Of a stretch of 64,000 nt of DNA, positions 8,251 through 59,149 are shown in pieces. The position numbers were made by a program, and so were the translations under genes. The stretch comes from Chiloscyllium plagiosum (taxonomy: Eukaryota): the NCBI RefSeq assembly GCF_004010195.1, contig NC_057754.1, forward strand, positions 2,075,238 to 2,139,237. Reading direction: 5' to 3'. Below the pieces are notes generated by a model, which saw only the letters and a program-made list of their open reading frames with translations, searched no databases and had not been told where the DNA came from. Position 1 is the stretch's first letter. Each line of letters begins with the position of its first letter.

Positions 8251-8435
8251 TAGGAGAAAGTGAGGACTGCAGATGCTGGAAATCAGAGCTGAAAATGTGT
8301 TGCTGGAAAAGCGCAGCAGGTCAGGCAGCATCCAAGGAGCAGGAGAATCGACGTTCTTATGCCTGAAACGTCGATTCTCCTGCTCCTTGGATGCTGCCTG
8401 ACCTGCTGAGCTTTTCCAGCAACACATTTTTCAGC
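8251..8435. mobile_element. Palindromic non-autonomous Penelope-like (Neptune-type pLTR) element
   Basis: Inverted arms around the centre gacgttcttatgcctgaaacgtc; TSD cgttacca(a)tcaac at 8237-8250 and 8436-8448. Confidence 0.85.
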
Positions 8436-8464
8436 CGTTACCATCAACGTCCATTTGTCACCCA

Positions 8465-8610
8465 ATCAGCACTTTCCTCTTGTAATATAAATATTGATTT
8501 TTTTTCTTCTTGAAATGTATTTTTGTGAACTGTCCTGATGAATGTAAGGCAAAACTTCAACAATTTTGTTTTCAACAAGACGCAAATATTCTGCTCTATC
8601 AAACAACTAC
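8465..8610 (+). mobile_element. Old PLE 3' fragment with decayed hammerhead core
   Basis: cctgatgaatgtaaggcaaaacttc near 8534-8558 resembles CTGATGA-stem-GAAA. Confidence 0.35.
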
Positions 8611-9891
8611 TTATAAAAGAGCTCCTGGAGTTTGGAGTTTTTGGAGACTTGAGATCTGAGGAGAACCAGATGTCTTAAGTGAAATATTATTTTAAGGTTT
8701 TCCCCCCACTAGCTCCCAGGATCTTAATCCGAAAATAGCCATATTTATCAATGTATAAGAAATGAATCAGTGTTAGCGCTGCTCGAATGGTTACATGCAA
8801 GTTGCTGTTCTTTTCAATAAAACAGGTGGGGAGTGGTAATTGATGGGGGTTTGGGGGACAGAGCAGTGTTACATCCAGCATAAGCTTTTTATCTCCTTCA
8901 ATTACACTCCACATATCATCTTTCTGTCTGTCCCCTGTGCTGGCCAAAGATAGGCACCATTCTCTACAGCAGCTATAATTCTGTGTAAACAGCTGACACC
9001 CTTTTCACGCTGAGGGATATCATGTCATTGTGAGGGATAGGCAGTGTTATTTGGCTGTCTTTCTGTGCGGTCTTGTCTCTGTATTTCTTCCTTATTACCA
9101 CACTGTTGGCCTCCCTTAGAGACTGCACCAGCAGTTTGGAAATTACATTCAGATGTGACAGCTGCACAATTTTAATTTTATATTTAGAAACCATTTTCAT
9201 AACATAACACTTATTTACCTATTTAAAATCTGAAGTATTTAAATGTTAATGCTTCAGGGATTTATCAGCGCATATTGTTCAACACATCTGAGAATAAAGC
9301 ATTCTATACAGAGGGCTATGTGACACAGGGAGTATCACGTGTGACCATGATCCAGTCAATATCTGACATCTGACAGGTTCATTTTCCAAACAAAACTATG
9401 AGCATGATCTCTGACTGATGTTCACTCAGCTCAACCTTCTGCGCTGGCTCCCATTTGCCTTTAATATTCTTTTTTGTTGCTCATCTATAATTGCCCTTTA
9501 ACTGAATGGCTGGCGGCCATTTCTGAGAGTAGTTAAGAGTCAACCACTTTGCTGGATTCACATATAAGACAGACTAGGGAAGAAAAGCAGATTTGTTTGT
9601 TTGATTTGGTTTGATTTATTATTTTCACATGTACTGAGATACAGTGAAAGGTGATGCTTTGTTTGCTATACAGGCAGATCGTTCCATACAAAGTCCACAA
9701 TGATAGCAGAACAGTGTGCAGAATACAGTGTTACTGCCCCAGAGAAGGTGCAGAGAGAGAGAGAGAGAGATCAACATTAACATAAAACGTAGAATAATAC
9801 AGAACAGGAACATGCCTCAAAGTTTGTGCGAAGATTTGTAGCTCGGGTGCTCGTTGTTGTGGTTCTGTTCGCCGAGCTGGAAGTTTTTGTT

Positions 9892-9931
9892 GCAAACGTT
9901 TCGTCCCCTGGCTAGGCGACATCATCAGTGC
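9892..9931 (-). ncRNA. Minimal type I hammerhead ribozyme motif
   Basis: GCA CTGATGA T GTCGCCT AGCC AGGGGAC GAAAC GTT TGC: both core boxes, stem II and a 3 bp stem I. Confidence 0.75.
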
Positions 9932-10859
9932 TTGGGAGCCTCCTGCGAAGCGCTTCTTTGATGTTTCCTCCGGTGTTTATAGTGGTCTGTCCCTGCCGCT
10001 TCCGGTTGTCAGTTTCAGCTGTCCGCTGTAGTGGTTGGTATATTGGTTCCAGGTCGATGTGTTTGTTGATGGAGTTTGTGGATGAATGCCATGCCTCTAG
10101 AAATTCTCTGGCTGTTTTCTGTCTGGCTTGCCCTATGATAGTAGTGTTGTCCCAGTCGAATTCATGTTGCTTGTTGTCTGCGTGTGTGGCTACTAAGGAT
10201 AGCTGGTCGTGTCGTTTCGTGGCTAGTTGATGTTCATGTATCAGGACACTATTCAAAAGGGCCACAACACACTGCAGTACACCAGGACTGCAAAAAGAAG
10301 AAGAGGAACACCTATACAAGGTATTCGCCAAAAACCATAACTGCCTCTGCTATGTGTCCCGAGATTGGTGATCCCATGGGTGTTCCGTTGATTTGTTCGT
10401 ATATCTGGTTGTTGAATGTGAAGTGTGTTGTGAGGCACAAGTCCAGTAGTTTAAGTATGCCGTCTTTGTTGATAGGTTCAGCATCCTGTTTTTTGTTCTG
10501 TATGTCCTGTAGGTTGGCTATTATTTCTCTGGCTAGGGTTCATGTCCGCATACATGAACATCAACTAGCCACGAAGCGACACGACCAGCTATCCTTAGTA
10601 GCCACACACGCAGACAACAAGCAACATGAATTCGCCTGGGACAACACTACTATCATAGGGCAAGCCAGACAGAGAACAGCCAGGGAATTCCTAGAGGCAT
10701 GGCATTCATCCACAAACTCCATCAACAAACACATCGACCTGGACCCAATATACCAACCACTACAGTGGACAGCTGAAACTGACAACCGGAGGCGGCAGGG
10801 ACAGACCACTATAAACACCGGAGGAAACATCAAAGAAGCGCTTCGCAGGAGGCTCCCAA

Positions 10860-10899
10860 GCACTGATGATGTCGCCTAGCCAGGGGACGAAACGTTTAC
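10860..10899 (+). ncRNA. Minimal hammerhead ribozyme motif (right PLE arm)
   Basis: CTGATGA at 10863-10869, GAAAC at 10889-10893; one stem I mismatch. Confidence 0.7.
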
Positions 10900-11639
10900 A
10901 ACAAAAACTTCCAGCTCGGCGAACAGAACCACAACAAGGAACATGCCTTTTGGCCCACGATGTTGTGCAGAATATACTGCGAAATTAAACTAATGCCTTC
11001 TGTCCATATCCCTCCATTCCTTGCTTTATTTACATGTCTGTCTAAAGGTCCCTTGAATGCCCCCTTTGTATCTGCCTCCACCACTACCACTGGCAGTGCG
11101 TTCCAGTTCTGTGTAAAAACAACTTGCCCCTCACTTTTTTATTTAACTTCCCCCCTTACCTTAAATGCATGCCCCATAGTATTGGACATTTCAACTCTGG
11201 GAAAAAGATTCTGACTGTCAACCCTATCTAAGCTTCTCATAATTTTATAAACTTCTATCAGGTCTCCCCTTAGCCTCTGCCACTCCAGAGAAAACAACAG
11301 AAATTTTTCGAGCTCTTGTTGTAGCTTGTACCATCTAATTCAGGTAGCATCCTGGTAAACCTTTTCAGCAACCTCTCCAAAGCCTCTGCATCCTTCCTGT
11401 AATGTGGCAACCAGAATTGAACACAATACTCTAAGTGCAGCCTAACAAAAGTTTTATAAAGCTGCAACATCACTTCCTGATTCTTGTACTCAGTGCCCCA
11501 ACCAATAAAGTCAAGCATGCCAAATGCTTTCATTACCACTCTATCCACTTGTGTGGCCACTTTCAAGGAGCAATGCATTAGGAACCCAAGATCCCTCAAT
11601 ACTTCAATATTGTTAAGGGTGCTGCCATTGACTTTTTCA

Positions 11640-11985
11640 TAGAAATTCATAGAACTCCTAAAGTGTGGAAGCTGGCCATTCGACCCATCATGTCCACACC
11701 AACCCTTTGAAAGGCATTCTAACCAGATCTACCCTATATTGCTCTCCATGTAACCCTACATTTCCCATGGCTAACCCACCTAGCCTGCACACCCCTGGAC
11801 ACTATGTGGGCAATTCAGCATGGCCAATCCACCTGACTTGCACATCTTTAGACTGTAGGAGGAAGCCCACGTAGACACAGGGAGAATATGCAAACTCCAC
11901 ACAGACAGTCGCCCAAGGCTGGAACCAAACCCAGGCCCCTGGTGCTGTGAGGCAGCATTGCTAACCGCTGAACCACCATGCTGCT
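11640..11985 (-). mobile_element. HE1-type V-SINE nested in CR1
   Basis: tRNA-like head, tgtgtggagtttgca core, CR1-like tail. Confidence 0.88.
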
Positions 11986-12779
11986 CTAGCACTGTGTACC
12001 TTCTCTTAATATTTGATCTCCCACAATACAACATCTCACACTTGCCCAGATTAAATTCCAACTCCATTTCTCTGCCCATATCTGAAACTGATCTTTATCC
12101 CACTATATCCTTTGACAACCTTCTACACTGACAACAACTTCCCCAATCTTTGTGTCATCTATGTTTTCTTCCAAGTTATTTAAATAAATCACAAACAGCA
12201 GAGGTCCCAGTATAAATCCCTGCAGAATACCCACTAGTCACGGATCTCCAGCCAGAAAAACACCCTTCCATCACTACCCTCTGTTTTCTATGGGCAAGCC
12301 AATTCTGAATCCAAACGGCCGAGTAATTGTGGATCCCATGCATCTCAATATTCTTATGAGGGATCTTGTTGAAAGCCTTACTAAAATCCATTGCTCTGCC
12401 TTCATCAATCACCTTTGTCAACGCCTCAAAAAGATTCAATCAAGTTTTCAGACTTGACCTGCCCCACGCAAAGCCATGCTGACTTTTCCTAATTAGGCCA
12501 TGTTTTTCCAAATGCAAATATCTGGGCGGTCCATTTTGAAAGTGGGGAAGAAGCTGTTTGTGAACCTGTTCATACGTATACTCAAAGTTCTATATCTTCT
12601 CCCTGACGGAAGAGGGTGGAAGAGAGTATAACTGGGGTGGGAAGGGTCTTTAATTATGTTGGTTGCTTTCCCAAGACACAAGGAAATGTAGATGGAGTCA
12701 ATGGATGAAAGTCTGATTGGTGACGGACTGGGCTGTGTTCATGACTCTGCAGTTTCTTGCGGTCTTGGGAAGAGCAGTT

Positions 12780-15835: not shown

Positions 15836-16379
15836 TAATAGTGCCCCTCAGCCACTACCTGCATAAACCCAGTGAGCTATTTGGGATGTTTTTTCCAATT
15901 GCTGTCCTTTCAAACCTGTTCTTGCTCAACCGACACATTCCCATACAGCTCCCAACTTCCTCACTAAGATGTGGCAGAGGTTAAGGTGAAGTAGTCCAGC
16001 TGTTAAGAGAGTGAGTGAACTGAACTCTGTGATTCACTGCATGGCTCCTTAAACACAAACTGAATTGCTGAGAATCTTATTTCTTCAGGACTTGACTTTT
16101 CAATGATCTGAGTCAGTGCATCAATAATTCGAGAGGTCTGGATGAAATTCTTTTTCTTTGGTGCTTTGACCCTGTAAGTATCCTGTAATGTGTAGTCTAA
16201 CCCAACTTGAAAAAGCATGTTACATGATTTACACAAAGATATTAATAAGAAAGAAATACAAGATATTTTTCAGCAATGTTATCAACTATTTGATCCATCA
16301 ACTACAGTCCCTTCATGACAGCAGAGAGGGATTTTTATCCAAAAGTCTCGAACCAAGGGACATTGTCTCAGAATAAGGG

Positions 16380-16917
16380 AGAGAGAATGACAGATACACA
16401 GTCACAGAGATCACAGTTTCACAGTCACAAAGGTGAGACAAAATAGAACGGACAGCACCTATCATACAAACAGTTAACTAGACTACTGGACTTTGATAAA
16501 CAATTAACATACACGTAGGATAGAGGTGGGGTGAAATTTCTTCATTCAGAGGATGGTGATCTTTAAATTTGGGAGCTATGGACACTCAGTCACTGAGAAT
16601 ACTGATGGATCATTTTTGAACACTAAAGGAATTAAGAAATAATATAGGAACTGAAGGAGAAGATGAGACAGAGGGTGTTGAATGACCTACATCTGCCCCA
16701 ATTCTGATGTTCTTTATTTGCTGGGAAAACATATTAGTATTTTAAAAATCCTGAACCATGTCCTCTGAAACAAACAGCTAACGTGTATGTTAATTGTTTA
16801 TCAAAGTCCAGTAGTCTAGTTAACTGTTTGTGTGATAGGTGCTGTCCGTTCTATTTTGTCTCACCTTTGTGACTGTGAAACTGTGATCTCTGTGACTGTG
16901 TATCTGTCATTCTCTCT
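16380..16917. repeat. 137 bp inverted repeat pair (16380-16516 and 16781-16917)
   Basis: Reverse-complement match with one mismatch seen; spacer about 264 bp. Confidence 0.95.
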
Positions 16918-16919
16918 GC

Positions 16920-17562
16920 CTCAGTCCTTGTGCAGATGTGCTTTCTCTCTCTCTCTCTCTCTCTCTCTCCCCCCACTCCCTCTTTCATATAAAGCTGTGA
17001 TGCTCTGCTCAAGTTATAGGAAGGAGATTATCAAGCTGGAGAGGGTTCAGAAGAGATTTGCCAGGATGTTGCTGGGTATGGAATGTTTGACTATAAAGAA
17101 AGGCTGGATAGGCTGGGACTGTTTTCACTGCAATGTAGGAGGTTGAGAGATGACCTCATAGAAGTTTATAAAATAATGAGAGCTATAGATAGTGTTAATG
17201 GTAGCTATCTTTTCGCTGGGATGGTGGATTTCAAGACTAGGAGTCACACTTTTAAAGTGAAAGACTATGAGAGAGATTTAGAAAAGATAAGGCAATTTTT
17301 TTACACAGGATGGTTTGCATGTGGAGTGAACTTCCTGAGAAAATGGTGGATGTGATTAAATGTACATTTAAAAAACATTTAGATAAGTACATGAATAAGA
17401 AAGGTTTGGAGGGATGTGGGCCAGGCGCAGTCAGGTGGGACTAGTTTAGTTTGGAATTATGTTCAGCATGGACTGGTTAGATCGAAGGGTCTGTTTCCAT
17501 GCTGTATACTCTATGACTGTATGACTGAGTAACTGTAGATCTCTCTCTGTCTCTGTTGTCTT

Positions 17563-17600
<38 letters not shown>

Positions 17601-20960: not shown

Positions 20961-21869
20961 AGGCTTCAGGCCTCAACCAAGATGTACACTGTCTGATCTA
21001 TTTGGTGGAGTTTCTTCATTGCCGGGCACATCCAGTACCTCCACCAAGTGACCACTTCTCTGCTAAACCTTGGCAGTGAACAGCAGCTGCTAGTTTGAAA
21101 CATGCAGAGAGGAAGCACAGGATGATGCAGACAGACTGTATGATGGAGGAAGGTTTTCTATCATTTTTTAGCCCAGAAATGTTGAACCCAGTCACGAGAC
21201 CTACGCCTGCTTCAGGTCAGCTAAAATGTTTTGTTCCTGGCTACTTCACTCTTCTTAGTATATGACTGTGACATAAAATTCAGCACCTTGAGTCTCCAAA
21301 TATTATTGATTCTTGAAACTAGGGAAACACAAGACGCTGTGAAATTTCTTACTTAGCTCAGGTTTAATTGAGATCTCCTTGCTTTGCTGTTAACCAGTCC
21401 TGAGAGATAGAGAAAAACAAAATCTTCCCAGCATTCTGAATGACATGGGCCATGAGGAGAGATCTGGGAGAATTGTGTGAATACTCGAGTGAGGCCTTTC
21501 TCAAAGTTGGGAGTGACTTTGTTGCATTTTTTGACAGAATTCCAGATGCCAGGTTGAGATTCTCGCTAAGGAGTGGCAAGATGTCTATTAACAGGGATTA
21601 TTGCTAGTCATCATCCTCATCAACATTGAATCTTGCCTTATTGATGTGCAGTCCAACCCTGGCATCCCCGACTTGGAAACCAGAGACTGGGAATTCCCAA
21701 CATGAATGTTGGAGTGAGTACCTGGTGTTTCCACCTCTGTGCTTGCTCCACCGCACTACCAACCTTGACACATGGCACCAACATCTCAGGGCACACTTAA
21801 TTTAGAACTTCTGCATGCACCCAACATCCAAGACATTGTATCTGACTCCTGCTAGATCCTCTGTACCAT

Positions 21870-22219
21870 CAGGCTCAGTACAGCGCAGCAAATGGTCCCG
21901 GATGGAATACTGTACAGAACAGGCTCAGTACAACCCAGCAATCTGTCCAGGATGGAATACTGTACAGACCAGGCTCAGTACAACCCAGCAATCTGTCCAG
22001 GATGGAATATTGTACAGACCAGGCTCAGTACAACCCAGCAATCTGTCCAGGATGGAATATTGTACAGACCAGGCTCAGTACAACCCAGCAATCTGTCCAG
22101 GATGGAATATTGTATAGACCAGGCTCAGTACAACCCAGCAATCTGTCCAGGATGGAATACTATACAGACCAGGCTCAGTACAACCCAGCAATCTGTCCAG
22201 GATGGAATACTGTACAGAC
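21870..22219 (+). repeat. Minisatellite, 7 x 50 bp
   Basis: Unit caggctcagtacaacccagcaatctgtccaggatggaatactgtacagac starting at 21870, 21920, ... 22170. Confidence 0.97.
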
Positions 22220-22220
22220 C

Positions 22221-23039
22221 GTGCAAATGCAAGGTCTTGCACTTTGGAAAAAAGAACACCGGCATGGGCTATTCTATAAACAGTGAGAAAATTCCTAAAG
22301 CCAAAATACAAAGGAATCTGGGAGTGCTAGTACAGGATTCTGTAAAGGTTGACTTGCAGGTTGAGTCCATGGTTAAGAAACCAAATGTAATGTTGTCATT
22401 TATTTCAAGAGGGTTGGAATGTAAAAGCAGTGAGGTGCTACTAAGACTTTGTAAATTTCTGGTTAGGCCCCATTTAGCATACTGTGTCCAGTTTTGGGCC
22501 CCACACCTCAGGAAGGCCATACTGGTACTGAAGCGTGTCCAGCAGAGATTCACACGGATGATCCCTGGAGTGGTAGGCCCAACACATAATGAATGGCTGA
22601 GGATCCTGGATTGTATGCGTTAGAGTTCAGAAGGTTGAGGGGAGATCTAATAGAAACTTATAAGGTAATGCATGGCTTAGAAAGGGTGTACGCTGGGAAA
22701 TTGTTTCTATAAGGTAATGCATGGCATACTAGGACGCGTGGGCACAGCCTTAGAATTAGAGGGGGTGAATTTAGAACGGAAATGATGAGACATTTCTTCA
22801 CCCAGAGAGTGGTGGGCCTGTGGGATTCACTATCACGGAGCACAGTGGAGGCAGGGGTGTTAAATGTCTTCAAGGCAGAGATAGATAAATTCTTAATCTC
22901 GCAAGGAATTAAGGGATATGGGGAGAGTGTGGGTAAATGGTGATGAAATGCCCATCAGCCATGATTGAATGGCGGAGTGGGCTCGATGGGCCGAATGGCC
23001 TTACTTCCACCCCTATGTCTGATGGCCTTATGGTCTTAT
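22221..23039 (+). mobile_element. CR1 LINE 3' part
   Basis: KCKVLHFG, LVRPHLAYCVQFWAP; tail ggccttatggtcttat. Confidence 0.92.
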
Positions 23040-23559
23040 CATGACCTATCTCCAACTTACTTGCTTTACTTTTCAATGCTGCAGTGAAGGAGTGTCACCA
23101 GCTATCATTACAGTGCTGCATCAAGGACACTTTGCATGCAGGTTCAGGCACTCAACCCGCAAAATGAATCAGCTGCATCTCAGTTCTGCTTGTGCTCATT
23201 CACCTTGCACCTTTTGGATGCTCACAGCATCTCTACTTTGCCTTGCCCTGCCTTGTCTTGCCGAGCCTTGTCTTTTAGTGCAGACACAAAGACAGGCAGC
23301 TCATTGTGGTTGTCATCAGTCAAGGAAATGGGTATGTTGATGCAGCTCACTATGCTATTGCCAAGTTTACACCTGCATCTGTGCCAGACACATTGCAAGT
23401 GGTTCAAACAGATGGCCACATTGAAGTTGGAGAAAGTAGTACTGAGTCATGTCAAGGGAGACACCCTTTAAGCAGAGGGTCCTGCTGTAGTAAGCCTCTG
23501 TCCAGCAGCGTGGACACGGTCATTTGACACGAGGGACAATCAGGATCAGGACCCTTGCC

Positions 23560-24392
23560 TTGTAATGGGTGATGAACCAAATGTCAGACACCCATCATCT
23601 ATGTTTCTGTCCTATTTTGGGCCATTCTATCCTGCACTGAGAGAAAGAGAATAATTGAATGAGATGAAATTGCATGGCATAGCTGTTAGCACTGTTTCAG
23701 TTAGGAAAACATTGGTGAGATGTTCCAAGTGAGTGTGTAGGAAGTGCACAGACCATGCAGGATTAGTAACGTGAGAGTACTGGGTGGGTGACAGTGAGTG
23801 AATGAGGAAGCATGTTGCATGTAATAGTTGGAATGGTGGAAAATGAGCCTGGGTGGGGAGTGAGGGGAGAAGCAGAAATGGAGTGAGTGAGAGGTAGCAG
23901 AGAGAAGATGGTGACACTTACCCTGGCAGACTGGAAGAAGTCATTAACCTTTGTCCTGCACTGCAAGATGGCTCTCCAGATAGCTGATGATGCTTAATCA
24001 AAGTGGCAACCTCAGACCAGACTGATATGGTTTGATGTTGTGTCCTCTGCTGGTCCAAGGAGAAGGGGATTTTCCCAGCATCGTGGGTTTATCACCCATT
24101 ACAAGGCAAGGGTCCTGATCCTGATTGTCCCTCGTGTCAAATGACTGTGTCCACGCTGCTGGACTGATATCAGAGGCTTACTACAGCAGGACCCTCTGCT
24201 TAAAAGGTGTCTCCCTTGACATGACTCAGTACTACTCTGCTCCAACTTCAATGTGGCCATCTGTTTGAACCACTCATGTCTTCTGCTGGTCCAAGGAAAA
24301 GGGGATTTTCCCCAGCATCATCCCATCCACCAGGACCTTCAGACACATGTCCATGAAATGAGGTGCCAATTTCCTCTTCTCTGCCTTGTCCA
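23560..24392 (-). pseudogene. Harbinger-type Myb/SANT-like DNA-binding protein remnant, two exons
   Basis: KRKLAPHFMDMCLKVLVDG..WSEVA..WRAILQCRTKVNDFFQSAR|gtaagt; intron 23632-23921; tgcag|DRMAQNRTET*. Confidence 0.6.
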
Positions 24393-25491: not shown

Positions 25492-25873
25492 AGTTTTTTT
25501 TATAGCTTCTTTCAGTCTATCCTATCCACATCCCTCATTATTTTGTACATCTCAGTTATACCTTCTCCAATCTCCTCTGCTCAGCGACAAACAACCCCAG
25601 ACTGTCCAATCTCTCCTCAGAACTGAAACTCTTCAGCCCAGACAATATCCCAGTGAATCTCTCCTGCAATATTCCCAGTGCGATCACTTCTGTCATTGCT
25701 GTCATTGCTGACCACGTAAGTAATATGTGAAAATGATCAGATTTATTCTGAACTGAAAGACACCAATGGAGTATCATATTGATCACTGTGATTGAACTAA
25801 TGTCTGCCTCTTACGATTATCTGAGCTATTATACTGAGCCACGGCAGCTGTAGGCTGCCACACTTGATTCCAT

Positions 25874-26484
25874 GATGTGGAAGTGCCGATGTTGGACTGG
25901 GGTGGACAAAGTTAAAAATCACACTACACTAGTCCAACAAATATCGGAAGGATATTTTGAAACTTGAAAGGGTTCAGAAAAGATTTGCAAGGATGTTGCC
26001 AGGATTGGAGGATTTGAGCCATAGGGAGAGGCTGAATAGGCTGGGGCTGTATTCCGTGGAGTGTCAGAGGCTGAGGGGTGACCTTATAGAGGTTTACAAA
26101 ATCATGAGGGGGCATGGATAGGGTAAATACACAAGGTCTTTTCTCTGGGGAGGGGGAGCCCAGAACTAGAGGGCATAGGTTTAGGATGAGAGGGAAAAGA
26201 TATAAAAGAGACCTAAGGGGCAACTTTTTCACACTTGGTGTGTGTGTGGAAAGGGCAGCCAGAGGAAGTAGTGGAGGCTGGTACAATTGCAACATTTAAA
26301 AGGTATCTAGATGGGTATATGAATAGGAAGAGTTTGAAGGGATATGGGCCGGTTGCTGGCAGGTGGGACTAGATTGGGTTGGGATATCTGGGTCAGCATG
26401 GACGGGTTGGATGTGCTGTACATCTCTATGACTCTAAGTTGAACTAACCCTGTTGGATTATAACCTGGTATGTAATTTTTAACT
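25874..26484. mobile_element. PLE pLTR hairpin remnant (family of 58065-58409) with a CR1 3' fragment (~25946-26437, +) in its centre
   Basis: Left arm gatgtggaagtgccgatgttggactggggtggacaaagttaaaaatc; right arm cctgttggattataacctgg..tttttaact. Confidence 0.75.
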
Positions 26485-30647: not shown

Positions 30648-30970
30648 ACAAACAAAAATAGAAATTGTTGGAAAAACTTGCAGGTCAGGCAGCATCTATG
30701 AAGAAAAATTAGAGTTAATGTTTCAGGTCCAGTGACCTTATCTCAGAACTGATGGTAGCTCGGAAAATGTCAGTTTATAATGCAGAAGATTGAGGTGGGG
30801 AGGAGGTAAGGAATGAACACTAGGTAGGGATAGAGCCCAAAGACAGAGAAGAGCAGTTGGACGAATAAAGGAATGGATAATGATCTGTCTCGGAGGGTGA
30901 ATAGCTGTTAGTAAAGACTATCTGTTGTTAGTCACTAATACTGTGTAATGGCAGACTATGAGATAACAAG
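30648..30970 (-). mobile_element. PLE (Neptune-type) 3' region
   Basis: gcaggtcaggcagcatc pLTR motif shared with the 8251, 38133 and 50022 copies. Confidence 0.6.
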
Positions 30971-31223
30971 GCAGCACAGTGGCTCAGTGTTTAGTACTGC
31001 TGCCTCACAGCGCCAGAGGCCTGGGTTCAATTCTAGCCTCGGGCGACTGTGTGGAGTTTGAACATTGTCCCCATGCCTGCATGGATTTCCTCTGGGTGCT
31101 CCGGTTTCCTCCCACATTACAAAAGATGTGCAGGTTAGGTGAATTGGCCATGCAAAATTGCCCATAGTGTTAGGTGCATTAGTCAGGGGGAAATGCAGGG
31201 AAATTAGTCTGAGTGGGTTACTC
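30971..31223 (+). mobile_element. HE1-type V-SINE
   Basis: ggcagcacagtggctcagtg head, ggttcaattc B box, V core. Confidence 0.9.
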
Positions 31224-31886
31224 AGTGTTTGTTACAGTCCTTGCACAGTATTTTGTAAATGACGTTTGTTTTGCTCATTGTCTGTATAGGGTCTTTCAAG
31301 TTCATTAGCTGCTGTTTTAGTGTGTTGGGTTTGTGGGCTACCATGATGCCAATGGGTCTGAGTAGTCTGGCAGTCATTTCTGAAAACGTCATTTAGAAAA
31401 TACCTTGCAAGAACTGTAACAAACACTGCATTGGACAAGCAGGCAGAAAACTAGTCACCAGGATACATGAGCATCAACTAGCCACAAAAAGACATTGACC
31501 CTCTCTCACTAGTATCCTCACATACGGATGAGGACAGACACCACTTCGACTGGGACAATACCTCCATCCTAGGACAAGCCAATCAAAGACACGCACGAGA
31601 ATTCCTAGAAGCATGGCATTCCAACCAGAACTCTATCAGCAAACACAGTCTATCAGTTAGACTCCATCTACCACCCCCTGAGAAAAGGAACAGGAAGTGC
31701 CTTCACCACAGCAAATAACATCACCACAGAAAATGAGATCACCAACCCAAAGAAACCCAAACATATAAATAGAAAGCAGGAATTTTCAGCATTGCTTCGC
31801 ATGAGGTCCACTGAAGATGTTACCTAGTAAGCTAATGAAATGTCTGGAAATGAACTTTTCAGCTCAGTGAGCAAATCTACATCCAA
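31224..31886. mobile_element. Penelope-like element with 5' inversion
   Basis: Minus 31224-31385: SEMTARLLRPIGIMVAHKP..NVIYKILCKDCNKH; plus 31385 onward: NVI*KIPCKNCNKHCIGQAGRKLVTRIHEHQ..REFLEAWH; decayed hammerhead ctgaaga..gaaatgtc at 31811-31844. Confidence 0.88.
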
Positions 31887-31917
31887 ATTTCTTCCCTAAA
31901 GGACATTTTGAATTGGG

Positions 31918-32100
31918 TGATTGATTTGAATTATTATTGTCGCATGCAACAATGTATAGTGAAAAGTTCTGTTTTGCATACTGTAAAGGCAGATCATAAC
32001 ATACAAAGATCAGAGGATGATTGAACAAAAAGGAATACAAAGTTACAGCTGCAGAGAAGGTGCACAAAAGGAAGGTCAACATTAGATTTGAAATTTGAGA
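31918..32100 (-). mobile_element. Rex1 3' UTR fragment
   Basis: Similar to 9590-9783. Confidence 0.7.
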
Positions 32101-32412
32101 CGGAGTGTGGTGCTGGAAAAGCACAACAGGTCAGGCAGCATCCGGGGAGCAGGAGAATCGATATTTCAGGCATAAGCCCTTCATCAGGAATGAGGCTATG
32201 GACCATGGGGGCTGTGTGATAAATCTGACAGAAATGTACCTGTACTTCCACGCACTTCATCTACTGAACCTGTTACACCCGATGTGGTCTCCTGTTCATT
32301 GGGAAGACAGGACGCCAATGTTGAACCCCCCCCCCCCCCGACAACCCATCCTGGCTTTTCCAGCACTGCACTCTCAACTGATTTCCAGCATCTGCAGTCC
32401 TCACTTTCTCCC
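32101..32412. mobile_element. Neptune-type PLE hairpin enclosing a GIY-YIG fragment
   Basis: Inverted pLTR arms; 32234-32316 translates CTCTSTHFIY*TCYTRCGLLFIGKTGR. Confidence 0.8.
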
Positions 32413-38000: not shown

Positions 38001-38132
38001 CACCTGTCATTAAAATCAAAACACTAGGTCTGTGATTTTGTGGGAGAGACTTGTCACACTTTCTGAAAATTGAAACCATGTTAGCATCTTTCCAGTCTGA
38101 AATCAGCTAACACAGCACAAATGTAGAGTATG

Positions 38133-38360
38133 AGCTGGAAATGTGTTGCTGGAAAAGCGCAGCAGGTCAGGCAGCATCCAGGGAACAGGAGAATCGACGT
38201 TTCGGGCATAAGCCCTTCTTCAGGAATAAGCCCTTCCTGAAGGAGGGCTTATGCCCGAAACGTCGATTCTCCTGTTCCCTGGATGCTGCCTGACCTGCTG
38301 CGCTTTTCCAGCAACACATTTCCAGCTCTGATCTCCAGCATTTGCAGACCTCACTTTCTC
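38133..38360. mobile_element. Palindromic PLE element with two back-to-back hammerhead motifs
   Basis: Near-perfect ~94 bp arms; TSD cacaaatgtagagtatg at 38116-38132 and 38361-38377. Confidence 0.92.
38192..38226 (-). ncRNA. Minimal type I hammerhead ribozyme motif
   Basis: TTC CTGAAGA A GGGC TTAT GCCC GAAAC GTC GA: intact CUGANGA, stem II, GAAA and GUC site. Confidence 0.8.
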
Positions 38361-38459
38361 CACAAATGTAGAGTATGTCTGATTAATACATAGGGAGTGT
38401 GTTTATCAAACAGCTTTCTTATTTTGCTCTCTTTTCATTCTGTTAATGCTTCTGAATGA

Positions 38460-48870: not shown

Positions 48871-48982
48871 GAAGATATTGAGGACTGCAGATGCTGGAGA
48901 TCAGGATCAAAAAGCATGACGCTAGAAAAACACAGCAGGTCAGGCAGCATCCAAGGAGCAGGAGGTTGACAATAAGCCCTTC
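48871..48982 (-). mobile_element. Single-arm Neptune-type pLTR insertion
   Basis: TSD atcctgtYtacag at 48858-48870 and 48983-48995. Confidence 0.8.
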
Positions 48983-50021
48983 ATCCTGTCTACAGACTAA
49001 GTGATGGACTGATCACCCTAAACTCTGCAAAAGAGGAAGCTGATGCCTGTCAGAGATTTGCATTAACTCTAAATAAGTGAAAATAAACACCACTAGAGTG
49101 TGGAGTCTGACATCTGATTACAATGCTGACTGACTGGACTTCTGGATGACGGAGGTGTCTTCACAGCTGCGATTTCTACTGTGTATCTCGATTCGCTGCT
49201 CTATCAGGGTGAGGAATGGCAACTGAAATGGGAGACTGACATCTTCTGAAAGGCATAGAATTCTGGAAAGAGATGGCAGTATTTGTCAAGAAAGAAGGAA
49301 GAACAAGGAAATGGTGAGCTGAAACCTGCAACGCTGAATGAAGTGAGCATCTGAAACTCTTCAGCAAAAAGGTTACAAGCTTTCAAGAGAAGGACACCAA
49401 TTTAAAGGCCAACTACAAGCTACTAAAACATCAGATTCAAAGTGAATTGGATTAAAAGTTCAAAATGTGAAGATGGCTTTGAAAAAGTTCAGGAAAGTCA
49501 ATGTTGAAATTACATGTTGGAACTTTGACAGCATTGAAGGTTGATTTGAGAAGGCTGGACACTAGCACGATAAATATGAGCTGCTGGATAGACAGAAACA
49601 CCAGCTGTTGCTGACAAGTTCCAGTGAGATATAAGACATCTGTTGATTCAGTAATTGGGGTTAAGAATCATATACAGATCCCAGGAAGCAGGATTGCATT
49701 CAGAGAAGAGGATGACTTAGTGGTAATGTCACTGGATCAGTAAAATTCAATTAACAAATCTGGAATTGAACACTAGTCTTGGTAATGGTGACTATGACAA
49801 CCACCACCAATTATTGTTTAAAAAAAGATATGGTTCACTAATGCCCTTTAGGGAAGGAAATCTGCTGTCCTTACTGATCTGGCCTACATATGACTCTATT
49901 TACAGCAATGTACTTTCAACTTAATTTATTTTCTGAAAGTTTAAGGAATATTTAAGAATAGGCAACAAATGCTGGATTTGCCAGCAGCACCCACACCCTT
50001 GATAGGATAAAGTTAAAAAAG

Positions 50022-50200
50022 CTGAAAATGTGTTGCTAGAAAAACGCAGCAGGTCAGGCAGCATCCAAGGAGCAGGAGAATTGACGTTTCGGGCATAAGA
50101 ACGTCGATTCTCCTCCTTGGATGCTGCCTGACCTGCTGCGCTTTCCCAGCAACACATTTTTCAGCTCTGATCTCCAGCATCTGCAGTCCTCACTTTCTCC
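50022..50200. mobile_element. Palindromic PLE element, sister copy of 8251-8435 in opposite orientation
   Basis: TSD taaagttaaaaaag at 50008-50021 and 50201-50214; same centre and ends as the 8251 copy. Confidence 0.9.
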
Positions 50201-53200
50201 TAAAGTTAAAAAAGGCCAATTTCCAACCTCTTCTTTGTTTCAGAGAATTGTGACTTTCTGGTTGGCTTCAAAAGTCAGGCATTATAAATGTTGCAAGGAA
50301 AATGTGTACAAACATGTTTAGTCTTCTACAGTCCAACCCCTTAAGGCTGCTTTCCAGTCTCCCCATGAAAGACTCCAAGAGAAGCATAGGCCATCACCTG
50401 TGAATATCTTCTGCTGCAGTCCCTTTATTCCCAGCTGAAATTGCACATTTTGCAATAGCATTATCCAAGATTTGGATGTTTAGAACTGTTGAAAACACTC
50501 ATTAGCGACTGGAAACTTGCAATATTATTTAAGTCAAGTGTTCATTAGCAGCAAGGATCTTGATTGAAGTGAATGCGCTAAGGTCTGCCTTACTAATTTA
50601 GCTCATCACCGTGGATTCATTACAGATTGGTGAATTTCTAAAAATACTCTTTACACTTTTTAAAATTCATAACGGAATTTCATTCCTGATATCCTAGAAA
50701 GAAATGCAGTAATGAACAAGGCAGGTCAGGCTGCTTAGTTGGATTATTCTCCCAGATCTTCAAGCTCCTGACAAACGAGTTATATACTTACTCATTTTCC
50801 AGAACTTGCTTTGAAATGGAAAGCATATAAGTTTTATTATCACTTTTAATAAGGTCTCTAATTGAGGTCTTTTTATGTACATTTGTGAAACATCATACAG
50901 TGAGCCATTTTATTTCCTCTTTGGTTAAAACCAAGAAATATGAGGGCAACATTGTTTAATAAAATTGAGTTTTTTTATCCAGATTAAAATAAGAACTTGA
51001 AATTAAAAAAAACTGAGTGTGTTGGAAATTGAAATCTCGCCTCTCAGTATCTGAAGGAGAAGAGACTGGTTTATGATCTTGACATAGAAGCTGATCAAAC
51101 GTTAACCTGTCTTTCCTGTCATGAGAAGCACTGTGCATTTACACATTTTCTACTTCCATAGTTCTGTGTTTAATCTACAAGTAATTTTGTAGTCATTGCA
51201 GTTCGAAATAATTTCAAACAAAGGCTTATTTAATTGTAACGCTTGTCTTTGTTACTCCCACTCACATTATCTCTGTCATTTAGACCTATGTCTTGACTAT
51301 TTTCACAGATACTCACTGTCTTGTTAGCCAGATCTACCTTTCTTTCAGATTCTCTCTCATATCTCACTCTCAAATTCTCTTCTTCCCTTTCACACACTTT
51401 CTCTTATCGCTTTTCACCCTTAACTTGTTTCTGTTTCACTCTGTTCACATCTCCCTGTTTTTTAGGTTGATCTTGTGTTCTCTTAAATTGCCTCTGTCAA
51501 ATGCTTTCATGCCCTTTCCTTCGTGCTTCACTGTCTCCATCGTTTCCTTTTGGAGCTGTTCAAATTCTAGAACCAGGCCACTCACAAGGCAAATCTCAGC
51601 AAGCAAGTCTTCATACAAAGGGTAGTGAATAGTTGGAACTCTTCCCCCAAAATGTTTCTGAGGCTGGGGTCAGTTGACAACTTCTAAACTGAGATTGATT
51701 GCTAGTTTCTGGTTGGATAAGGGGATGAAGGATTCTAGACCAAGGCAGGTAGTCGGGTTTAAGATGCAGATCAACTGTGATCTTACTAAATAGCAGAAAT
51801 AGATTTGAGGGGCTGAATAATCATCTCCTGGTTCTGTGTTTTTGTAACTTTTCCCCAAGGCTGCAAAACATATGTACCACATCAGTCCTGGGTGCTGCCA
51901 AATGCCACATCCCCTTTCAGAAGGGCAGTAGACCCAGTTCCCTCCTCCTCCCCATGTCTGCCTTGAAGCTGCCATCAGATTTCACTACATGCCAGGAACT
52001 ATCTCTGCCAAAATCTGTTAAAATTCTTCTATTAGAGTAAACTTGCCATACATCCTGAGCTTTATCACAAGTTCAAGATAATATCTGTTTCTTTTCCTAC
52101 ACCAAGAAGTAATTAATAATAACATTTAAAATGAAGATTTTGTAGAAACAAAATCATAGAATCTTATCCTTGAAATTATTGCTGAAAATCTCCAGAACAC
52201 CAATTAATACAATCATTATTTGATCAATTCAATCGCCATACCTCCATATTCCTGACAATAACACAATGAAAGAACACCCAATTGTGTGAGAAAAGTTCTC
52301 AGCATAAGGGATAAGCCATAATGACCAAGATGGGGAGGAATTCCTTCACTCAGATGATATGGTGTAATTCATCTCTACTCCAGAGAGCTGTGGGAAATCA
52401 ATCACATTCACACAGAGATTGCTAAGTTTCTAGTTACTAACAGCATCAAGGAATAGATTATTGTTAGGCAAGGGCATCAAAGATTATTGGGAGTAGGCAA
52501 TTTGAAACACAAACAGACCAGCCATGATCTTATTGAATAGTGGAGCAGGCTCGAAGGACCGAATGGCCTAGCCCTGATTCTAATTCGTGTGCTCGTATAT
52601 AAAGATTACACAGGAAAATGAAATAGAGGCAAATATCAGCTGTGATCTAGAACTTCTGGCTCTTGGTGAGAAATGCTGTAGGAAAACATGTTTGTCATCC
52701 TCCAGGGATCCACTTTGTCACCAGTTCAAAACAATCTTAAAGGAAAAGAAAGCCAGTCATTAACTGTAAAGCGTCACGGTTATATCTGCTCCCTGATTAA
52801 TGCCCTCTGACTTTGGCATAATTACCTAGATTTGCTTGTTCTCAGCTTTGACCTTAAAGACAGAAGCATCAGGACAGATTGCCCAGCAGCAGTACCATGC
52901 AACATTCATTGCCAGTTCATGTGAGTGAGGAGGACAATATCATTCTGCTGAGGCAATAGGATTCTGAGCTTTTCAGCATGTGATTTTAATAAAGACAGTG
53001 TGTACTTAAAGAAAGACAGGTTTATGGGAAGTGTCCCCAGGAATACAACCTACTCTTTAACCCCTAAAGCCTGGGAGCAATCAGCAATTATTCAGGTTAA
53101 GATAAGGAGCCCATCAATTGGCACAAACCTTTGTTTCACCTTGAGCTGCTTTGCAGAGCTGGTGAAGGATTTATTGCCGGAATAAAACTATATGATGGTC

Positions 53201-53641: not shown

Positions 53642-53810
53642 CATAGAACATAGAACAATACAGCACAGAACAGGCCCTTCGGCCCACGATGTTGTGCCGA
53701 ACATTTGTCCTAGCTTAAGCACCCATCCATGTACCTATCCAATTGCCGCTTAAAGGTCACCAAAGATTCTGACTCTACCACTCCCACAGGCATCGCATTC
53801 CATGCCCCCA
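53642..53810 (-). mobile_element. CR1 3' terminal fragment
   Basis: (catagaa)n tail and caggcccttcggcccacgatg. Confidence 0.85.
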
Positions 53811-54300: not shown

Positions 54301-54492
54301 ATTGACAACCGGAAGCGGCAGGGACAGGCCACTATAAATGCCGGAGGAAACACCACAGAAGTGCTTCACAGGAGGCTCCCAAGCACTGAGGATGTCACCT
54401 AGACAGGGGACGAAACGTTTGCAACAAAAACCTCCAGCTCGGCGAACAGAACCACAGCAACGAGCACCCGAGCTACAAATCTTCTCACAAAC
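54301..54492 (+). mobile_element. Poseidon-like PLE 3' fragment with hammerhead motif (54383-54423)
   Basis: Same family as 9818-10936; GCA CTGAGGA TGTC..GAC GAAAC GTT TGC; TSD attgttaag at 54292-54300 and 54493-54501. Confidence 0.88.
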
Positions 54493-54667
54493 ATTGTTAA
54501 GTTTTAGAACTGTCTTTTACCAAAGATAAAATGAAGGGGGCCTTGTAACCTTTTCTGAACTCTGCCTGATTGCAAGCCTGGATGTTTTGAATATTAGAGA
54601 TTAGAGAGCTCAGGTTGGCTTCCTCAGAAGGTACAAGGTGTTATTCTTGACGAAAATGGTAGCAGTT

Positions 54668-54975: not shown

Positions 54976-55637
54976 GGGGTTGTAGGTTCAGTTATATGGA
55001 AAAGGCTAAAGGAGGATGCTCAACAGAGGTCATATAAGTTTCTAAAGCAAGCAATAGAACCGTGAGTATAGGGTCAGGAATCTAACTTCACACACAACAG
55101 ATAAGAGGACATCTATGAGAAGGGGGCCAGTCAATGCAGGACTGAAGGTGTTGTATTAAAATGCACAGAATATATGAAATAAGGTAAATGAGCTTAAAGT
55201 CCAATTGAAATTGACAGGAAGTTGTGGATATCACAATAACATGGCTGCTAGAGGATCAGGCATGGGACCTCAGGGTTACCTTGTTAGTAAGAAAGGAAAT
55301 TTAATCAATAGCAAGAAGTGAAGAGTTGAATCAGAAGGTATAGAATTTCTGTGGGTACTATTGAGGACCCATGAAGGAAAAAGACTGATGGGAGTTATGT
55401 ACAAGTTTCGTAGCTATAGATAAGATGTAGAGAAGAAAATAAATCAGGAGATAAAAAAGACAAGTAAGAAAGGCAATATTACAATAATTATTGGAAACTT
55501 TAATATGCAGGTAGACTGGGAAAATCAGGTTAGTAGCAGATCTGAAGAAGAGGACTCTGTGGAATGTCTATAAGATTTTTTTGGAGCAGCTTGTGGTAGA
55601 GCCCATTAGGGAACAGGCACTTCTGATTTGGTGATAA

Positions 55638-55996
55638 TTAGAGTCATAGAGTCTTAGAGATGTACAGCATGGAAACAGACCCTTCGGTCCAACCCGTCCA
55701 TGCCGACCAGATATCCCAACCCAATCTAGTCCCACCTGCCAGCACCCGGCCCATATCCCTCCAAACCCTTCCTATTCANNNNNNNNNNNNNNCCCTTAGG
55801 TCTCTTTTATATCTTTCCCCTCTCACCCTAAACCTATGCCCTCTAGTTCTGTACTCCCCAACCCCAGGGAAAAGACTTTGCCTATTTATCCTATCCATGC
55901 CCCTCATAATTTTGTAAACCTCTCTATGGTCACCCCTCAGCCTCCGACGCTCCAGGGAAAACAGCTCCAGCCTGTTCAGCCTCTCCCTGTAGCTCA
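55638..55996 (-). mobile_element. Young CR1/HER1 3' fragment nested antisense; contains assembly gap 55779-55792
   Basis: Closely similar to 12780-13220; 14 N bases. Confidence 0.92.
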
Positions 55997-58064
55997 GATA
56001 TTTAATGAGGCAAATTTGATTAGGGGGCTTAAAGTGAAGGGAGCCCCTCGGTGCGAATGACTGTAATATGATAGAAGTCACCCTGCAGTTTGAGAGGGAG
56101 AAACTGGATCAGATGTAATGGTATTACAATTAAATAAAGGTAACTACAAAGACATGAGGGTGGAGCTGCCCAGAGTTGATTGGAAGGGGATCTTAGCAGG
56201 GAAGATGGTGGAACAGCAATGGCAGGACCTTTTGTGGGTAATACAAGAGGCACTGCAGAAATTCATCCCAAGGAAGAAGAAACATTCTAAGGGAAGGCTG
56301 AGGCAACCATGGCGGAGAAGGGAAGTCAGGGGCAGTATAAAACCAAAAGAAAACGCTGACCATGTGGTGAAGATTGGTGGGGAGCCAAAGGATTGGGAAG
56401 CCTGTAAAAACCAACAAAGATAACTACAAAAGTAAAAAGAGGTGAGAATATTAAATATGAGAGTAAGTTAACTCAGAAAAGAAGAGTAAAATGCCTAAAA
56501 GACGAGTGAGGCTGGAGAGGTAGTGATGGGGAACAAAGAAATGGCAGAGAAACTAATAGGTGCATAGCATCAGTTTTCATGGTGGAAGACACCAGCAGCA
56601 TGCCAGAACTCAAGAGAATCAGGAGATAGAGGTGAGTATAGTGACCATCACTACAGAGAAGGTGCTGGGAAAGCTGAACAGTCTGAAGGCCAATACATTG
56701 CCTGGGCCAGATGGACTGCATCCCAGAAATCTGAAGGAGACAGATGAGGAGATTGTACAGGCATTAGTAGTTATCTTTCGAGAATCACTGGAGTCAGGAG
56801 GATCCCAGATAACTGGAAAATGGCTAATGTAGTACCCCTGTTTAAGAAGGGAGGGAGGCAGAAAACTATTATTAAGGAAGAAATCGCAGAGTATGCGGAA
56901 GTGCATGGTAAAATAGGACGGAGTCAGTCTGGCTTTCTCTAGCATCTGCAGTCCTCACTTTCTCCTTTGTCAAGGGGAGGTCATGCCTGACAAATCTGTG
57001 AAAATTCTTTGAGGAGATAACAAGCAATTTAGACAAAGAAGATCCAGTGGAAGTAATCTGTTTGGATTTCCAGATGGCCTTTGAAAATGTAGTAAACAGA
57101 GGCTGCTAAGTAAGAGAACAGCCCATGGTGTTAGGGGCAGGGTACTGGCATAGATGCAAAGTTGGCTGACTGGCAGAAAGCAGAGAGTGGGGATAAAGGG
57201 TTCTTTTTCAGGATGGTAGCCGGTGACCAATGGAGTTCCGCAGTAGTCAGACTTGGGACTACAACTATTCACATTAACATTAACAATCTGGATGAAGCAA
57301 ATGAAGGCATTATTGACATGTTTGCAGATAACACAAAGATACATGGAGGGACAGAGCATACTGAGGAAGCAGGGAGGCTGCAGAAGGACTTGGACTGGCT
57401 AGGAAAGTGGGCAAAAAAGTGGCAGATGGAATACAATTTGGGAAAGGGTGAGGAATTTTGATAGGAAGAATAGATGTTAGGCTACTTTCTAAATGGTGAC
57501 AGGCTTCAGAAATCTGAAGCTTATAGAGACTTAGGAGACCTAGTTGAGGATTCGTTTAAGGTTAACATGCAAGTTGATAGTTCAGGAGGCAAATACAATG
57601 TTAGCATTCATTTCAAGAGGGCTAGAATACAAGAGCAGAGATGTACTGCTGAAGCTGTATAGGGCTCTGGCCAGACCGCATTTGGAATATTGTGAGCAAG
57701 TTTGGGTCCCACATCTTATGAAAGATGTACAGTGTTGGAGAGGGTCCAGAGGTGGCTTACAAGAGTGATCCCAGGGAAGAAGAGCCTGTCATATGAGGAG
57801 TGGTTGAGGACTTTGAGCCTGTACTCGATGGAGTTCAGAAGGATGAGGGGGAACCTGATTGAAACTTACAGAATAATGAGAGGTCTGGGTAAAGTGGACA
57901 TAGAGAAGATGTTTCCACTAGTAGGAGAGACTAGGCCCTGAGGGCACAGCCTCAGAATAAAGGAATGACCCTTTAGAACTGAGATGAGGAGGAATTTCTT
58001 TAGCCAGAGGGTGGTTAATCTGTGGAATTCACTACCAAGGCCAGGTCATTGAGTGTATTTAAGA

Positions 58065-58409
58065 TGTAGAGGTGCCTGCGTTTGACTGGGGTGGACAAAG
58101 TTAAAAATCACACAACACCAGGTTACAGTCCAACAGGTTTATTTGGAAGCACTAGCTTTTGGAGCACCGCTCCTTCATCAGGTAAATAGTGGGGCAGGAT
58201 CATAAGGCACCGAATCTATGGCAAAAAGATCAGTGTTATGCAATTTGTTCAATATATTGTTTTAATTGAATAACACTGTGATCTTTTGCTATAAATTCTG
58301 TGTCTTATGATCCTGCCCCGCTAGTTACCTGATGAAGGAACAGTGCTCTGAAAGCTAACATTTCCAAATAAACCTGTTGGGCTATAAGCTGGTGTTGTCT
58401 GATTTTTAA
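58065..58409. mobile_element. Palindromic PLE element (third family) with a hammerhead motif in each arm
   Basis: Arms ~58101-58240 and ~58268-58409; ctgatgaaggaacagtgctctgaaagcta at 58329-58357; TSD gagtKtatttaaga at 58051-58064 and 58410-58423. Confidence 0.88.
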
Positions 58410-59149
58410 GAGTTTATTTAAGACAGAGATAGGTTCTTGATTAGTAACAGGATAAAATGTTATGGGGAGAAGGTAGGAGAATAGGATTGAGAACATCAAA
58501 CATTCAAAACACTCAAGCAAAGTACTGTGGTTCACAACACAGGATTGCAGGTGGATGCTGACACTTGAATTGTAATGGCTACATTTGTGGAGTGATAGAA
58601 AAAGGCTGGAAGATTTGTCCAGCTTTAGATAAAGGGAGAAGTCCAAAGGCGAAATGGAGCATGAAAGAATGTTCTGGAGTTCAGTGTTTGCAAGCTGGGA
58701 AAGAAAGCAATCAGAAGTAAACATTTGGAAGCTAAGAATCATCTTGGACTTCTTGTGGGAGAATTGACTGTGTACTTAAAGGATATAGGCCAAATGCTGG
58801 AAAGTGGGACTAGATCTGGTCAGCATGGACAGGTTGGACTGAAGGGTCTGTTTCTGTTCTGTCATCTCTATGACTCTATGACAGTGGAAAGTGTACTTGT
58901 GAAGTGTGTTTTATCGATTGTGCTAAAAGTAAAATGGGAAAATGCTGTTCTATGCATTAAAATATGTTCCTCACAAAAACATAATTTTGGAAAAAGTGCT
59001 TTTAGTCTGGTGTTATAGGAACAGTTTAGTCTGGTGTTACAGCAACAGTTTAAACATGGTTGTCATGGCATCCTTTCAGTTATCAACTTGTGTTCTGAAG
59101 AAGAGGAGGAATTCATGAATGTTGGGCCTAGATAGCTGAAGACTCATAA

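What the first reader, a model, noticed from the sequence alone, without database searches (positions are those of the whole stretch)
8251..58423. Same insertion geometry in three dissimilar PLE families: head-to-head arms, one arm 32-37 nt shorter
Seen: unpaired tail of about 37 nt (8251-8287), 37 nt (9818-9854), 32-33 nt (38329-38360), 35 nt (50166-50200) and 36 nt (58065-58100), each element with a 12-17 bp TSD. Known: Drosophila virilis Penelope has inverted pLTRs with a similarly short tail. Inference: a conserved, sequence-independent length constraint in PLE second-end joining, such as an RT/GIY-YIG footprint or fold-back priming.
Basis: partly seen in the sequence, partly recalled or inferred. 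Interest (0 to 1): 0.72.

Follow-up and report, generated by a model that had tools for sequence, protein, structure and literature searches.

The report
Known Penelope tail in shark inversions
Five mirror-image insertions of Penelope-like jumping genes really do have one arm about 35 bases longer than the other, but this 30-40-base tail is a published hallmark of the whole class, already tied to two start sites of reverse transcription on the element's RNA.

Summary
All five elements are head-to-head, 5'-truncated copies with 12-17 nt target-site duplications and a one-sided tail (37, 36-37, 32-34, 34-38, 36-38 nt). A sixth, older copy has a 38-nt tail. They form three families. One family carries Penelope-type RT and GIY-YIG-region ORF pieces; all three carry minimal hammerhead motifs.

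The geometry is not new. A 30-40 bp tail at one end is described across PLE clades (PMC8557442, PMC3846280). Frangieh 2024 (PMC11167929) showed in vitro that it is the span between two internal RT start sites. Same-species raw reads show a sharp long end in family A (about half of the tail-covering depth stops at two positions). The short end could not be counted, so the genome-wide test is half done.

Twin priming from both target strands fits better. Residual leads: the inner ends of both arms nearly coincide, and two copies share one junction.

The parts
8251..8435 (.). E1, family A inverted PLE-end insertion: tail 8251-8287, long arm (antisense) to 8355, short arm (sense) 8356-8435; TSD 8237-8250 / 8436-8448
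   Evidence: present in two related species, where the TSD is a perfect 14-mer
9818..10936 (.). E2, family B (Poseidon-like) inverted insertion: tail 9818-9854, long arm to 10241, short arm 10545-10936; TSD 9806-9817 / 10937-10948
   Evidence: arms 97% complementary; right-arm ORF piece 85% identical to an RT-bearing protein
10234..10545 (.). Scrambled centre of E2: thumb-region piece (+, about 10234-10335), 29-nt filler, RT piece (-, to 10539), and a 5-7 nt inverted copy of the short arm's start
   Evidence: tblastn with P0001 aa 220-253 and 52-119
9887..9928 (-). Minimal hammerhead motif of E2's long arm (twin at 10863-10904, +). The ORF's ATG lies at the start of stem II, as reported for lizard Poseidon
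   Evidence: motif scan; ORF open from 9922 to the long end; PMC11167929
38133..38360 (.). E3, family A inverted insertion: short arm 38133-38226, 7-nt templated filler, long arm 38234-38328, tail 38329-38360; TSD 38116-38132 / 38361-38377; hammerhead motif 38188-38223 (-)
   Evidence: arms 99% complementary
50022..50200 (.). E4, family A inverted insertion with the same inner junction as E1: short arm to 50099, long arm from 50100, tail about 50166-50200; TSD 50008-50021 / 50201-50214
   Evidence: flanks unrelated to E1's (12/60 and 14/60 identical)
58065..58409 (.). E5, family C inverted insertion: tail 58065-58100, long arm to 58245, 18-nt centre, short arm 58264-58409; TSD 58051-58064 / 58410-58423; hammerhead motif 58329-58365 (+)
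25872..26484 (.).
54301..54492 (+). Solo family B copy ending at the long site (33 nt past the short site), TSD 9 nt
48871..48982 (-). Diverged solo family A copy with tail, TSD 13 nt with 1 mismatch
56936..56965 (+). Tail-only family A fragment (about 30 nt) inside a LINE-like sequence

Best explanation
These are ordinary dead, 5'-truncated insertions of endonuclease-bearing Penelope-like elements. The GIY-YIG domain makes a staggered cut whose 12-17 nt offset becomes the TSD (inferred from standard TPRT geometry). Both 3' target ends prime reverse transcription on element RNA (both-strand cleavage and extension shown in vitro for lizard Poseidon). Priming happens at two internal RNA sites about 35 nt apart (shown in vitro for that element): one end uses the distal site and carries the tail, the other uses the proximal site and lacks it. 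The two antisense cDNAs run toward the element's 5' end, stop near the same place and are joined head-to-head by short templated fill-ins and microhomology (inferred from the junctions). The tail is thus set at initiation, not at second-end joining. That one end takes each site, probably on a single RNA held by a dimer, is my inference.
For: PMC11167929: the enzyme cleaves and extends both strands, starts at two internal sites whose spacing is the tail, and is predicted to be a dimer. Family A's long end is sharp in same-species reads: 15,685 + 8,454 (X19) and 15,884 + 8,103 (X20) loose ends at 8252-8253 with unrelated AT-rich flanks, about half of the estimated tail depth. Solo copies end at the long site without any second arm. 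A protein of a related shark follows family B only as far as the short site (P0002 aa 301 at 10936). Neither arm contains the other in E1/E4 or E2: the short arm reaches 11 and 4-5 nt further inward, and 0-1 nt in E3 (the 5-nt figure uses, table 7, row 10238). Templated fillers at the E2 and E3 junctions. All 6 of 6 measurable inverted copies pair one long end with one short end.
Against: The in vitro data concern one lizard element and found no difference in start site between the strands. They do not show both sites used in one insertion. The short-end peak did not appear among the loose-end rows shown for family A or B (one search showed 24 rows and withheld 3,341). No shared fold or significant sequence likeness was found around the sites of the three families. 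The inner-end bias rests on three junction types. E1 and E4 share a junction with no clear microhomology, which independent de novo joining explains poorly. Families A and C have no protein evidence.
Confidence: 0.72

Rival explanations
1. Fold-back or footprint model (first reader; related to the self-priming proposal in PMC3846280): one cDNA from the long site folds back, copies itself, and is stopped about 35 nt short by bound RT or endonuclease.
For: It explains near-identical arms (97-99% in E2 and E3) and near-coincident inner ends. Palindromes at inverted junctions were read as self-priming in rotifers.
Against: It predicts that the loop lies on the tailed arm; in E1/E4 and E2 it lies on the tail-less arm. 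Both start sites are used in primary reverse transcription in vitro. E2's centre holds RT and thumb pieces from far upstream.
Confidence: 0.12
2. Endonuclease resolution: both ends are first made alike, and the GIY-YIG domain recognises the tail and trims one end while resolving the intermediate (the view in PMC8557442).
For: PMC8557442 calls the tail most likely a result of EN-mediated resolution. The D. virilis EN needed the tail for recognition (as cited).
Against: The later in vitro mapping places both ends at RT start sites. It does not account for the inner-end pattern.
Confidence: 0.1
3. For E1 and E4 only: a pre-formed palindromic master of about 185 nt is itself copied as a non-autonomous unit, so its geometry is inherited or regenerated from a palindromic RNA.
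For: Same junction to the base, 93.5% identity over 186 nt, unrelated flanks and separate TSDs.
Against: Only two copies. No shared arm-specific derived variants, and the 4T/5T run is swapped between their arms. Very many family reads break exactly at this junction (15,910 and 19,192 in X19); crossing reads could not be counted. The junction sits on hammerhead stem II, a plausible recurrent stall site.
Confidence: 0.3
4. Post-insertion processing: longer palindromes lose their centre by cruciform or hairpin repair, which equalises the inner ends. This concerns the inner ends only, not the tail.
For: The instability of long perfect palindromes is general knowledge (recalled). E2's centre is scrambled.
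Against: It gives no reason for the loop to sit on the short arm. E1 is old enough to be shared by three species, but its centre was not read in the relatives.
Confidence: 0.15

Closest known systems
Canonical EN+ PLE insertion unit with an inverted 5'-truncated copy and a 30-40 bp tail (Craig et al. 2021, PMC8557442, Fig. 2 legend; passages read)
   Same: Inverted arrangement, tail often at one end only, length range, hammerhead in the pLTR; described across several clades.
   Different: The copies here are bare two-arm stubs with no full ORF. I saw no statement on inner-end coincidence in the passages read.
Poseidon of Anolis carolinensis, PAc (Frangieh et al. 2024, PMC11167929; parts 1-3 of 4 read, figures not seen)
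   Same: Tail equals the span between two RT start sites; ATG at the start of hammerhead stem II; AT-rich targets. By eye, family B's long ends follow the same CTTCG motif and its short end lies in the same ACAACAAC motif.
   Different: The text read does not explain inverted copies or assign one site to each strand. Hammerhead-to-end distances differ among the families here (short end 44, 56 and about 67 nt after the GAAA, counted).
Adineta vaga Penelope families (Arkhipova et al. 2013, PMC3846280; passages and Discussion read)
   Same: Inverted pLTRs, a 31-bp tail on one of them, TSDs, palindromes at the junction.
   Different: TSDs there are 8-10 bp against 12-17 here. The authors favour self-priming on an antisense template.
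L1 twin priming
   Same: Both target strands prime on one RNA, giving an inversion inside a TSD.
   Different: In L1 the second primer lands at variable internal sites and the 3' end is not duplicated. Here the two sites are fixed about 35 nt apart and both arms cover the same sequence.

Membership tests
EN+ Penelope-like elements | PLE-type reverse transcriptase | tested here: met
   Family B only: E2's inner piece matches P0001 aa 52-119 at 82%. P0001 hits RVT_1 at E 3.3e-6, 27.4 bits, just under the 29.6 cutoff, with PF26215 precomputed. The window piece alone gave no Pfam hit.
EN+ Penelope-like elements | C-terminal GIY-YIG endonuclease in the same ORF | tested here: inconclusive
   E2's arms start downstream of the GIY-YIG motifs. 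Homologue P0003 gives a weak PF01541 hit (E 0.027, below cutoff); P0001 and P0002 give none. The Atlas's nearest named cluster is GIY-YIG in 17% of members at 0.87.
EN+ Penelope-like elements | Minimal hammerhead motif in the terminal repeat | tested here: met
   My own motif scan gave 8 hits: 7 in these repeats (families A, B, a B relative, C) and 1 elsewhere. Rfam gave no hammerhead hit among its 9 matches. E1 and E4 are cut inside the motif. Cleavage was not tested.
EN+ Penelope-like elements | 5' truncation, inverted copy, one-sided 30-40 bp tail, TSD | tested here: met
   6 of 6 measurable inverted copies.
EN+ Penelope-like elements | RT and EN of an autonomous partner for families A and C | not testable with these tools
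   No coding part of A or C lies in the window and no genome is held. Their assignment rests on hammerhead and architecture.
Penelope/Poseidon clade | RT phylogeny | not tested
   No tree was built. 'Poseidon-like' for family B rests on the ATG position in the hammerhead and a by-eye likeness of its ends to PAc.
Non-autonomous palindromic unit (MITE-like) | Many copies with one fixed junction | tested here: inconclusive
   2 of 3 family A inverted copies in the window share a junction; crossing reads were not countable.

The most novel reading that the evidence does not exclude
Inverted PLE insertions record coordinated twin priming on one RNA. A dimer places one target strand at each start site; the RT from the upstream site leads and the other trails; and the leading cDNA's snap-back bridges to the trailing one. 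Hence every inverted copy is long-plus-short, the inner ends coincide, and the central loop sits on the tail-less arm. A palindromic product could then propagate as a unit of about 185 nt (E1/E4). With some 10^5 copies, this genome would allow a direct test of an open step of the PLE cycle.
Probability: 0.3. Interest if true: 0.55.

Novelty: already known. Interest (0 to 1): 0.2.

Why it matters
As posed, the finding rediscovers a class hallmark whose cause was mapped in 2024. It matters modestly because the steps after initiation (second strand, origin of inverted copies) are still stated to be unvalidated in that paper. A genome with roughly 10^5 family A and 3x10^4 family B copies (rough read-depth estimate) is a rich natural data set for that question. 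The sign of the inner-end offset and the frequency of symmetric copies are cheap, decisive measurements.

Tried and rejected

Joints such as 8286>8252 and 8280>8356 have unknown letters in between and may come from sister subfamilies, so I did not use them.

Rfam returned only sub-threshold hairpin and frameshift-element matches. Pfam on the window's own PLE pieces gave nothing relevant.

A shared RNA fold or motif around the two sites across families was not found: single-sequence folds differed and the alignments were not significant.

Segmental duplication as the cause of E1/E4 was rejected because the flanks are unrelated. Assembly artefact was rejected for E1: contigs of both relatives run from flank into the element on the right side, and one relative's also on the left.

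The other 12 were set aside as opposite-facing dispersed repeats, templated duplications, an internal inversion or short palindromes. Two further candidate inverted copies (32098-32412, 62185-62331) were left out of the count because their ends and TSDs could not be fixed.

A search for 'Penelope' with 'twin priming' returned 3 papers, none on PLE mechanism by title or abstract start. Searches showed no paper on shark PLE tails in their listings. The library lacks most subscription papers, including the older Penelope tail literature. The figures of PMC11167929 (Figs 1G, S2), its spreadsheet and its GenBank file were not seen and may bear on the position of the second site.
Full report
**Observation.** The window is repeat-rich animal DNA; the closest proteins to its PLE fragment come from carpet sharks. 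No genome is held. Each of the five is bounded by a direct repeat: E1 8251-8435 (14/13 nt), E2 9818-10936 (12), E3 38133-38360 (17), E4 50022-50200 (up to 14) and E5 58065-58409 (14, one mismatch). Such matches arose in 17 of 20,000 random position pairs. Allowing for 1-2 nt of microhomology, the tails are 37, 36-37, 32-34 and 34-38 nt and 36-38 nt for E5 (read). A sixth, older copy at 25872-26484, split by a LINE-like insert, has a 38-nt tail and a decayed TSD candidate, 8 of 12. Two more candidates (32098-32412, 62185-62331) were not measurable and are left out. In contigs of two related species E1 is present and its right TSD has the A that the window lacks.

**Independence.** E1, E3 and E4 are one family (A), E2 a second (B), E5 a third (C). 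Their terminal regions are not significantly alike. E1 and E4 match over the whole 186-nt unit, junction included, at 93.5%, with unrelated flanks. The five elements are therefore at most four independent junctions.

**Identity.** E2's right arm encodes a 110-aa piece 85% identical to P0001, which carries an RT domain. E2's centre holds an RT piece and a thumb piece of the same ORF in opposite orientations. GIY-YIG support is weak: one of three homologues hits PF01541, below cutoff. A minimal-hammerhead pattern hit 8 places, 7 of them in these repeats, covering families A, B and C; this agrees with the motifs described for PLE terminal repeats (PMC4209133, passages). Rfam did not detect them. 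In family B the ORF starts at hammerhead stem II and stays open to the long end, as reported for lizard Poseidon. Families A and C have no coding part in the window, so their PLE status rests on motif and architecture.

**Read test.** I laid two same-species raw runs and two relatives' contig sets on 8200-10245. Family A depth was about 50,000 against 0.64 and 0.10 in unique flank, which suggests on the order of 10^5 copies including sister subfamilies; family B about 3x10^4 (rough). Loose ends with unrelated AT-rich flanks piled at 8252-8253: 24,139 reads in X19 and 23,987 in X20, about half of the estimated tail depth. The relatives' contigs peak there too, and X5 shows a further end at 8244 (347 contigs), so a minor longer class or target-template homology exists. 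Family B's tail depth was 0.64 of its arm depth in both runs, which fits a mix of tailed and tail-less ends, though edge effects also lower it. The short-end peak was not among the 24 loose-end rows shown (3,341 withheld; many reads fit both arms). Opposite-strand joints at 8356 (182 and 171 reads) suggest many other inverted copies, though library chimeras are not excluded.

**What is known.** PMC8557442 (passages) describes an inverted 5'-truncated copy and a 30-40 bp tail often at one end only, across PLE clades, and ascribes it to EN-mediated resolution. PMC3846280 (passages and Discussion) reports a 31-bp tail, 8-10 bp TSDs and junction palindromes in a rotifer, and proposes self-priming on an antisense template. 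PMC11167929 (parts 1-3 of 4; supplementary PDFs as text only) shows that purified Poseidon protein cleaves and extends both strands, starts RT at two internal RNA sites, and that the tail is the span between them; later steps are called unvalidated. Counting by eye on the template printed there, the 111-118 site follows a CTTCG motif. Family B's two long ends lie 7 and 11 nt after the same motif, and its short end lies in an ACAACAAC motif also present about 35 nt upstream in the lizard RNA. I did not see the figure that gives the second site. PMC8969392 lists inverted pLTRs and short 3' extensions as routine PLE features (passages). Passages of PMC9977147 and of bioRxiv 10.64898/2026.07.22.740005 added nothing on the tail.

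**Mechanism.** Each arm is antisense on the strand that leaves its adjacent TSD copy, as expected if both 3' target ends primed on element RNA (inference). Solo copies ending at the long site (54301-54492, 48871-48982, 56936-56965) show that the long end needs no second arm. A related shark's protein follows family B only up to the short site (P0002), a second instance of that end. The junctions discriminate between models. The inner ends of the two arms nearly coincide: offsets of 11 nt in E1/E4, 4-5 nt in E2 (arms of about 390 nt) and 0-1 nt in E3; E5's 18-nt centre cannot be assigned. Where there is an offset, the extra bases belong to the tail-less arm. Fold-back copying of the tailed cDNA predicts the opposite, and the tail-less cDNA cannot supply a tail. 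Two cDNAs are therefore needed, or later trimming. E2 has a 5-7 nt inverted copy of its short arm's start and E3 a 7-nt filler repeated from the arm, signs of templated fill-in during joining. All 6 of 6 measurable inverted copies are long-plus-short; counting E1/E4 once, random site choice would give that about 3 times in 100 (0.5^5). My best reading is twin priming at two RNA-defined sites, probably one site per strand on one RNA, followed by end joining. The two sites are shown in another species; the coordination is inferred from few copies.

**The shared junction.** E1 and E4 could descend from a palindromic master, or reflect a stall hot spot at hammerhead stem II. Very many family reads break at this junction and crossing reads could not be counted; the arms share no diagnostic variants. 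An earlier unchecked note on this genome reports differing centres among similar palindromes, which favours de novo joining but is not evidence I tested. I give the master about 0.3.

**Verdict.** Real, correctly measured, and an already known class signature with a published cause. The short-arm-leading pattern and the shared junction are small, testable leads. Interest 0.2.

Noticed in passing
window 24083-24277: An inverted copy of nearby sequence (about 23398-23578, 94%) sits between two near-identical direct repeats of about 42 nt: a locally templated insertion with a long duplication and no likeness to the PLE families searched.
   Followed up: partly
window 16376-16516: An inverted 141-nt copy (99%) of 16781-16921 lies inside a LINE-like sequence with no evident TSD; it looks like a templated repair insertion.
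   Followed up: no
window 31223-31887: A relative of family B with an L1-like internal inversion: a minus-strand ORF piece overlaps the plus-strand piece by 45 nt. Its right end appears to fall near the short site.
   Followed up: partly
window 8244-8250: 347 contigs of a related species align 7 nt past E1's long end into its TSD. Either a minor longer end class exists, or E1's target was complementary to the RNA just beyond the start site.
   Followed up: no
window 8252-8286: Reads in which the 35-nt tail is followed by another tail start (46 and 50 reads), plus the tail-only fragment at 56936-56965. They could be cDNAs stopped at the proximal site, or sister subfamilies.
   Followed up: no
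window 62185-62331, 30650-30750, 32098-32412: Older, A-related hammerhead-type repeats. The first looks inverted with a one-sided tail, but its ends could not be fixed.
   Followed up: partly
window 9775-9817 and 10937-10975: E2 is inserted in a repeat end whose uninterrupted relative at 53642-53704 serves, by eye, as an empty-site analogue.
   Followed up: partly
P0005, P0007, P0008: Annotated shark protein isoforms (5'-nucleotidase domain protein 1, MAP3K7, CUE domain protein 2) contain family B sequence: exonised PLE pieces or annotation artefacts.
   Followed up: no
window 21820-22270: A tandem array with a 50-nt period.
   Followed up: no
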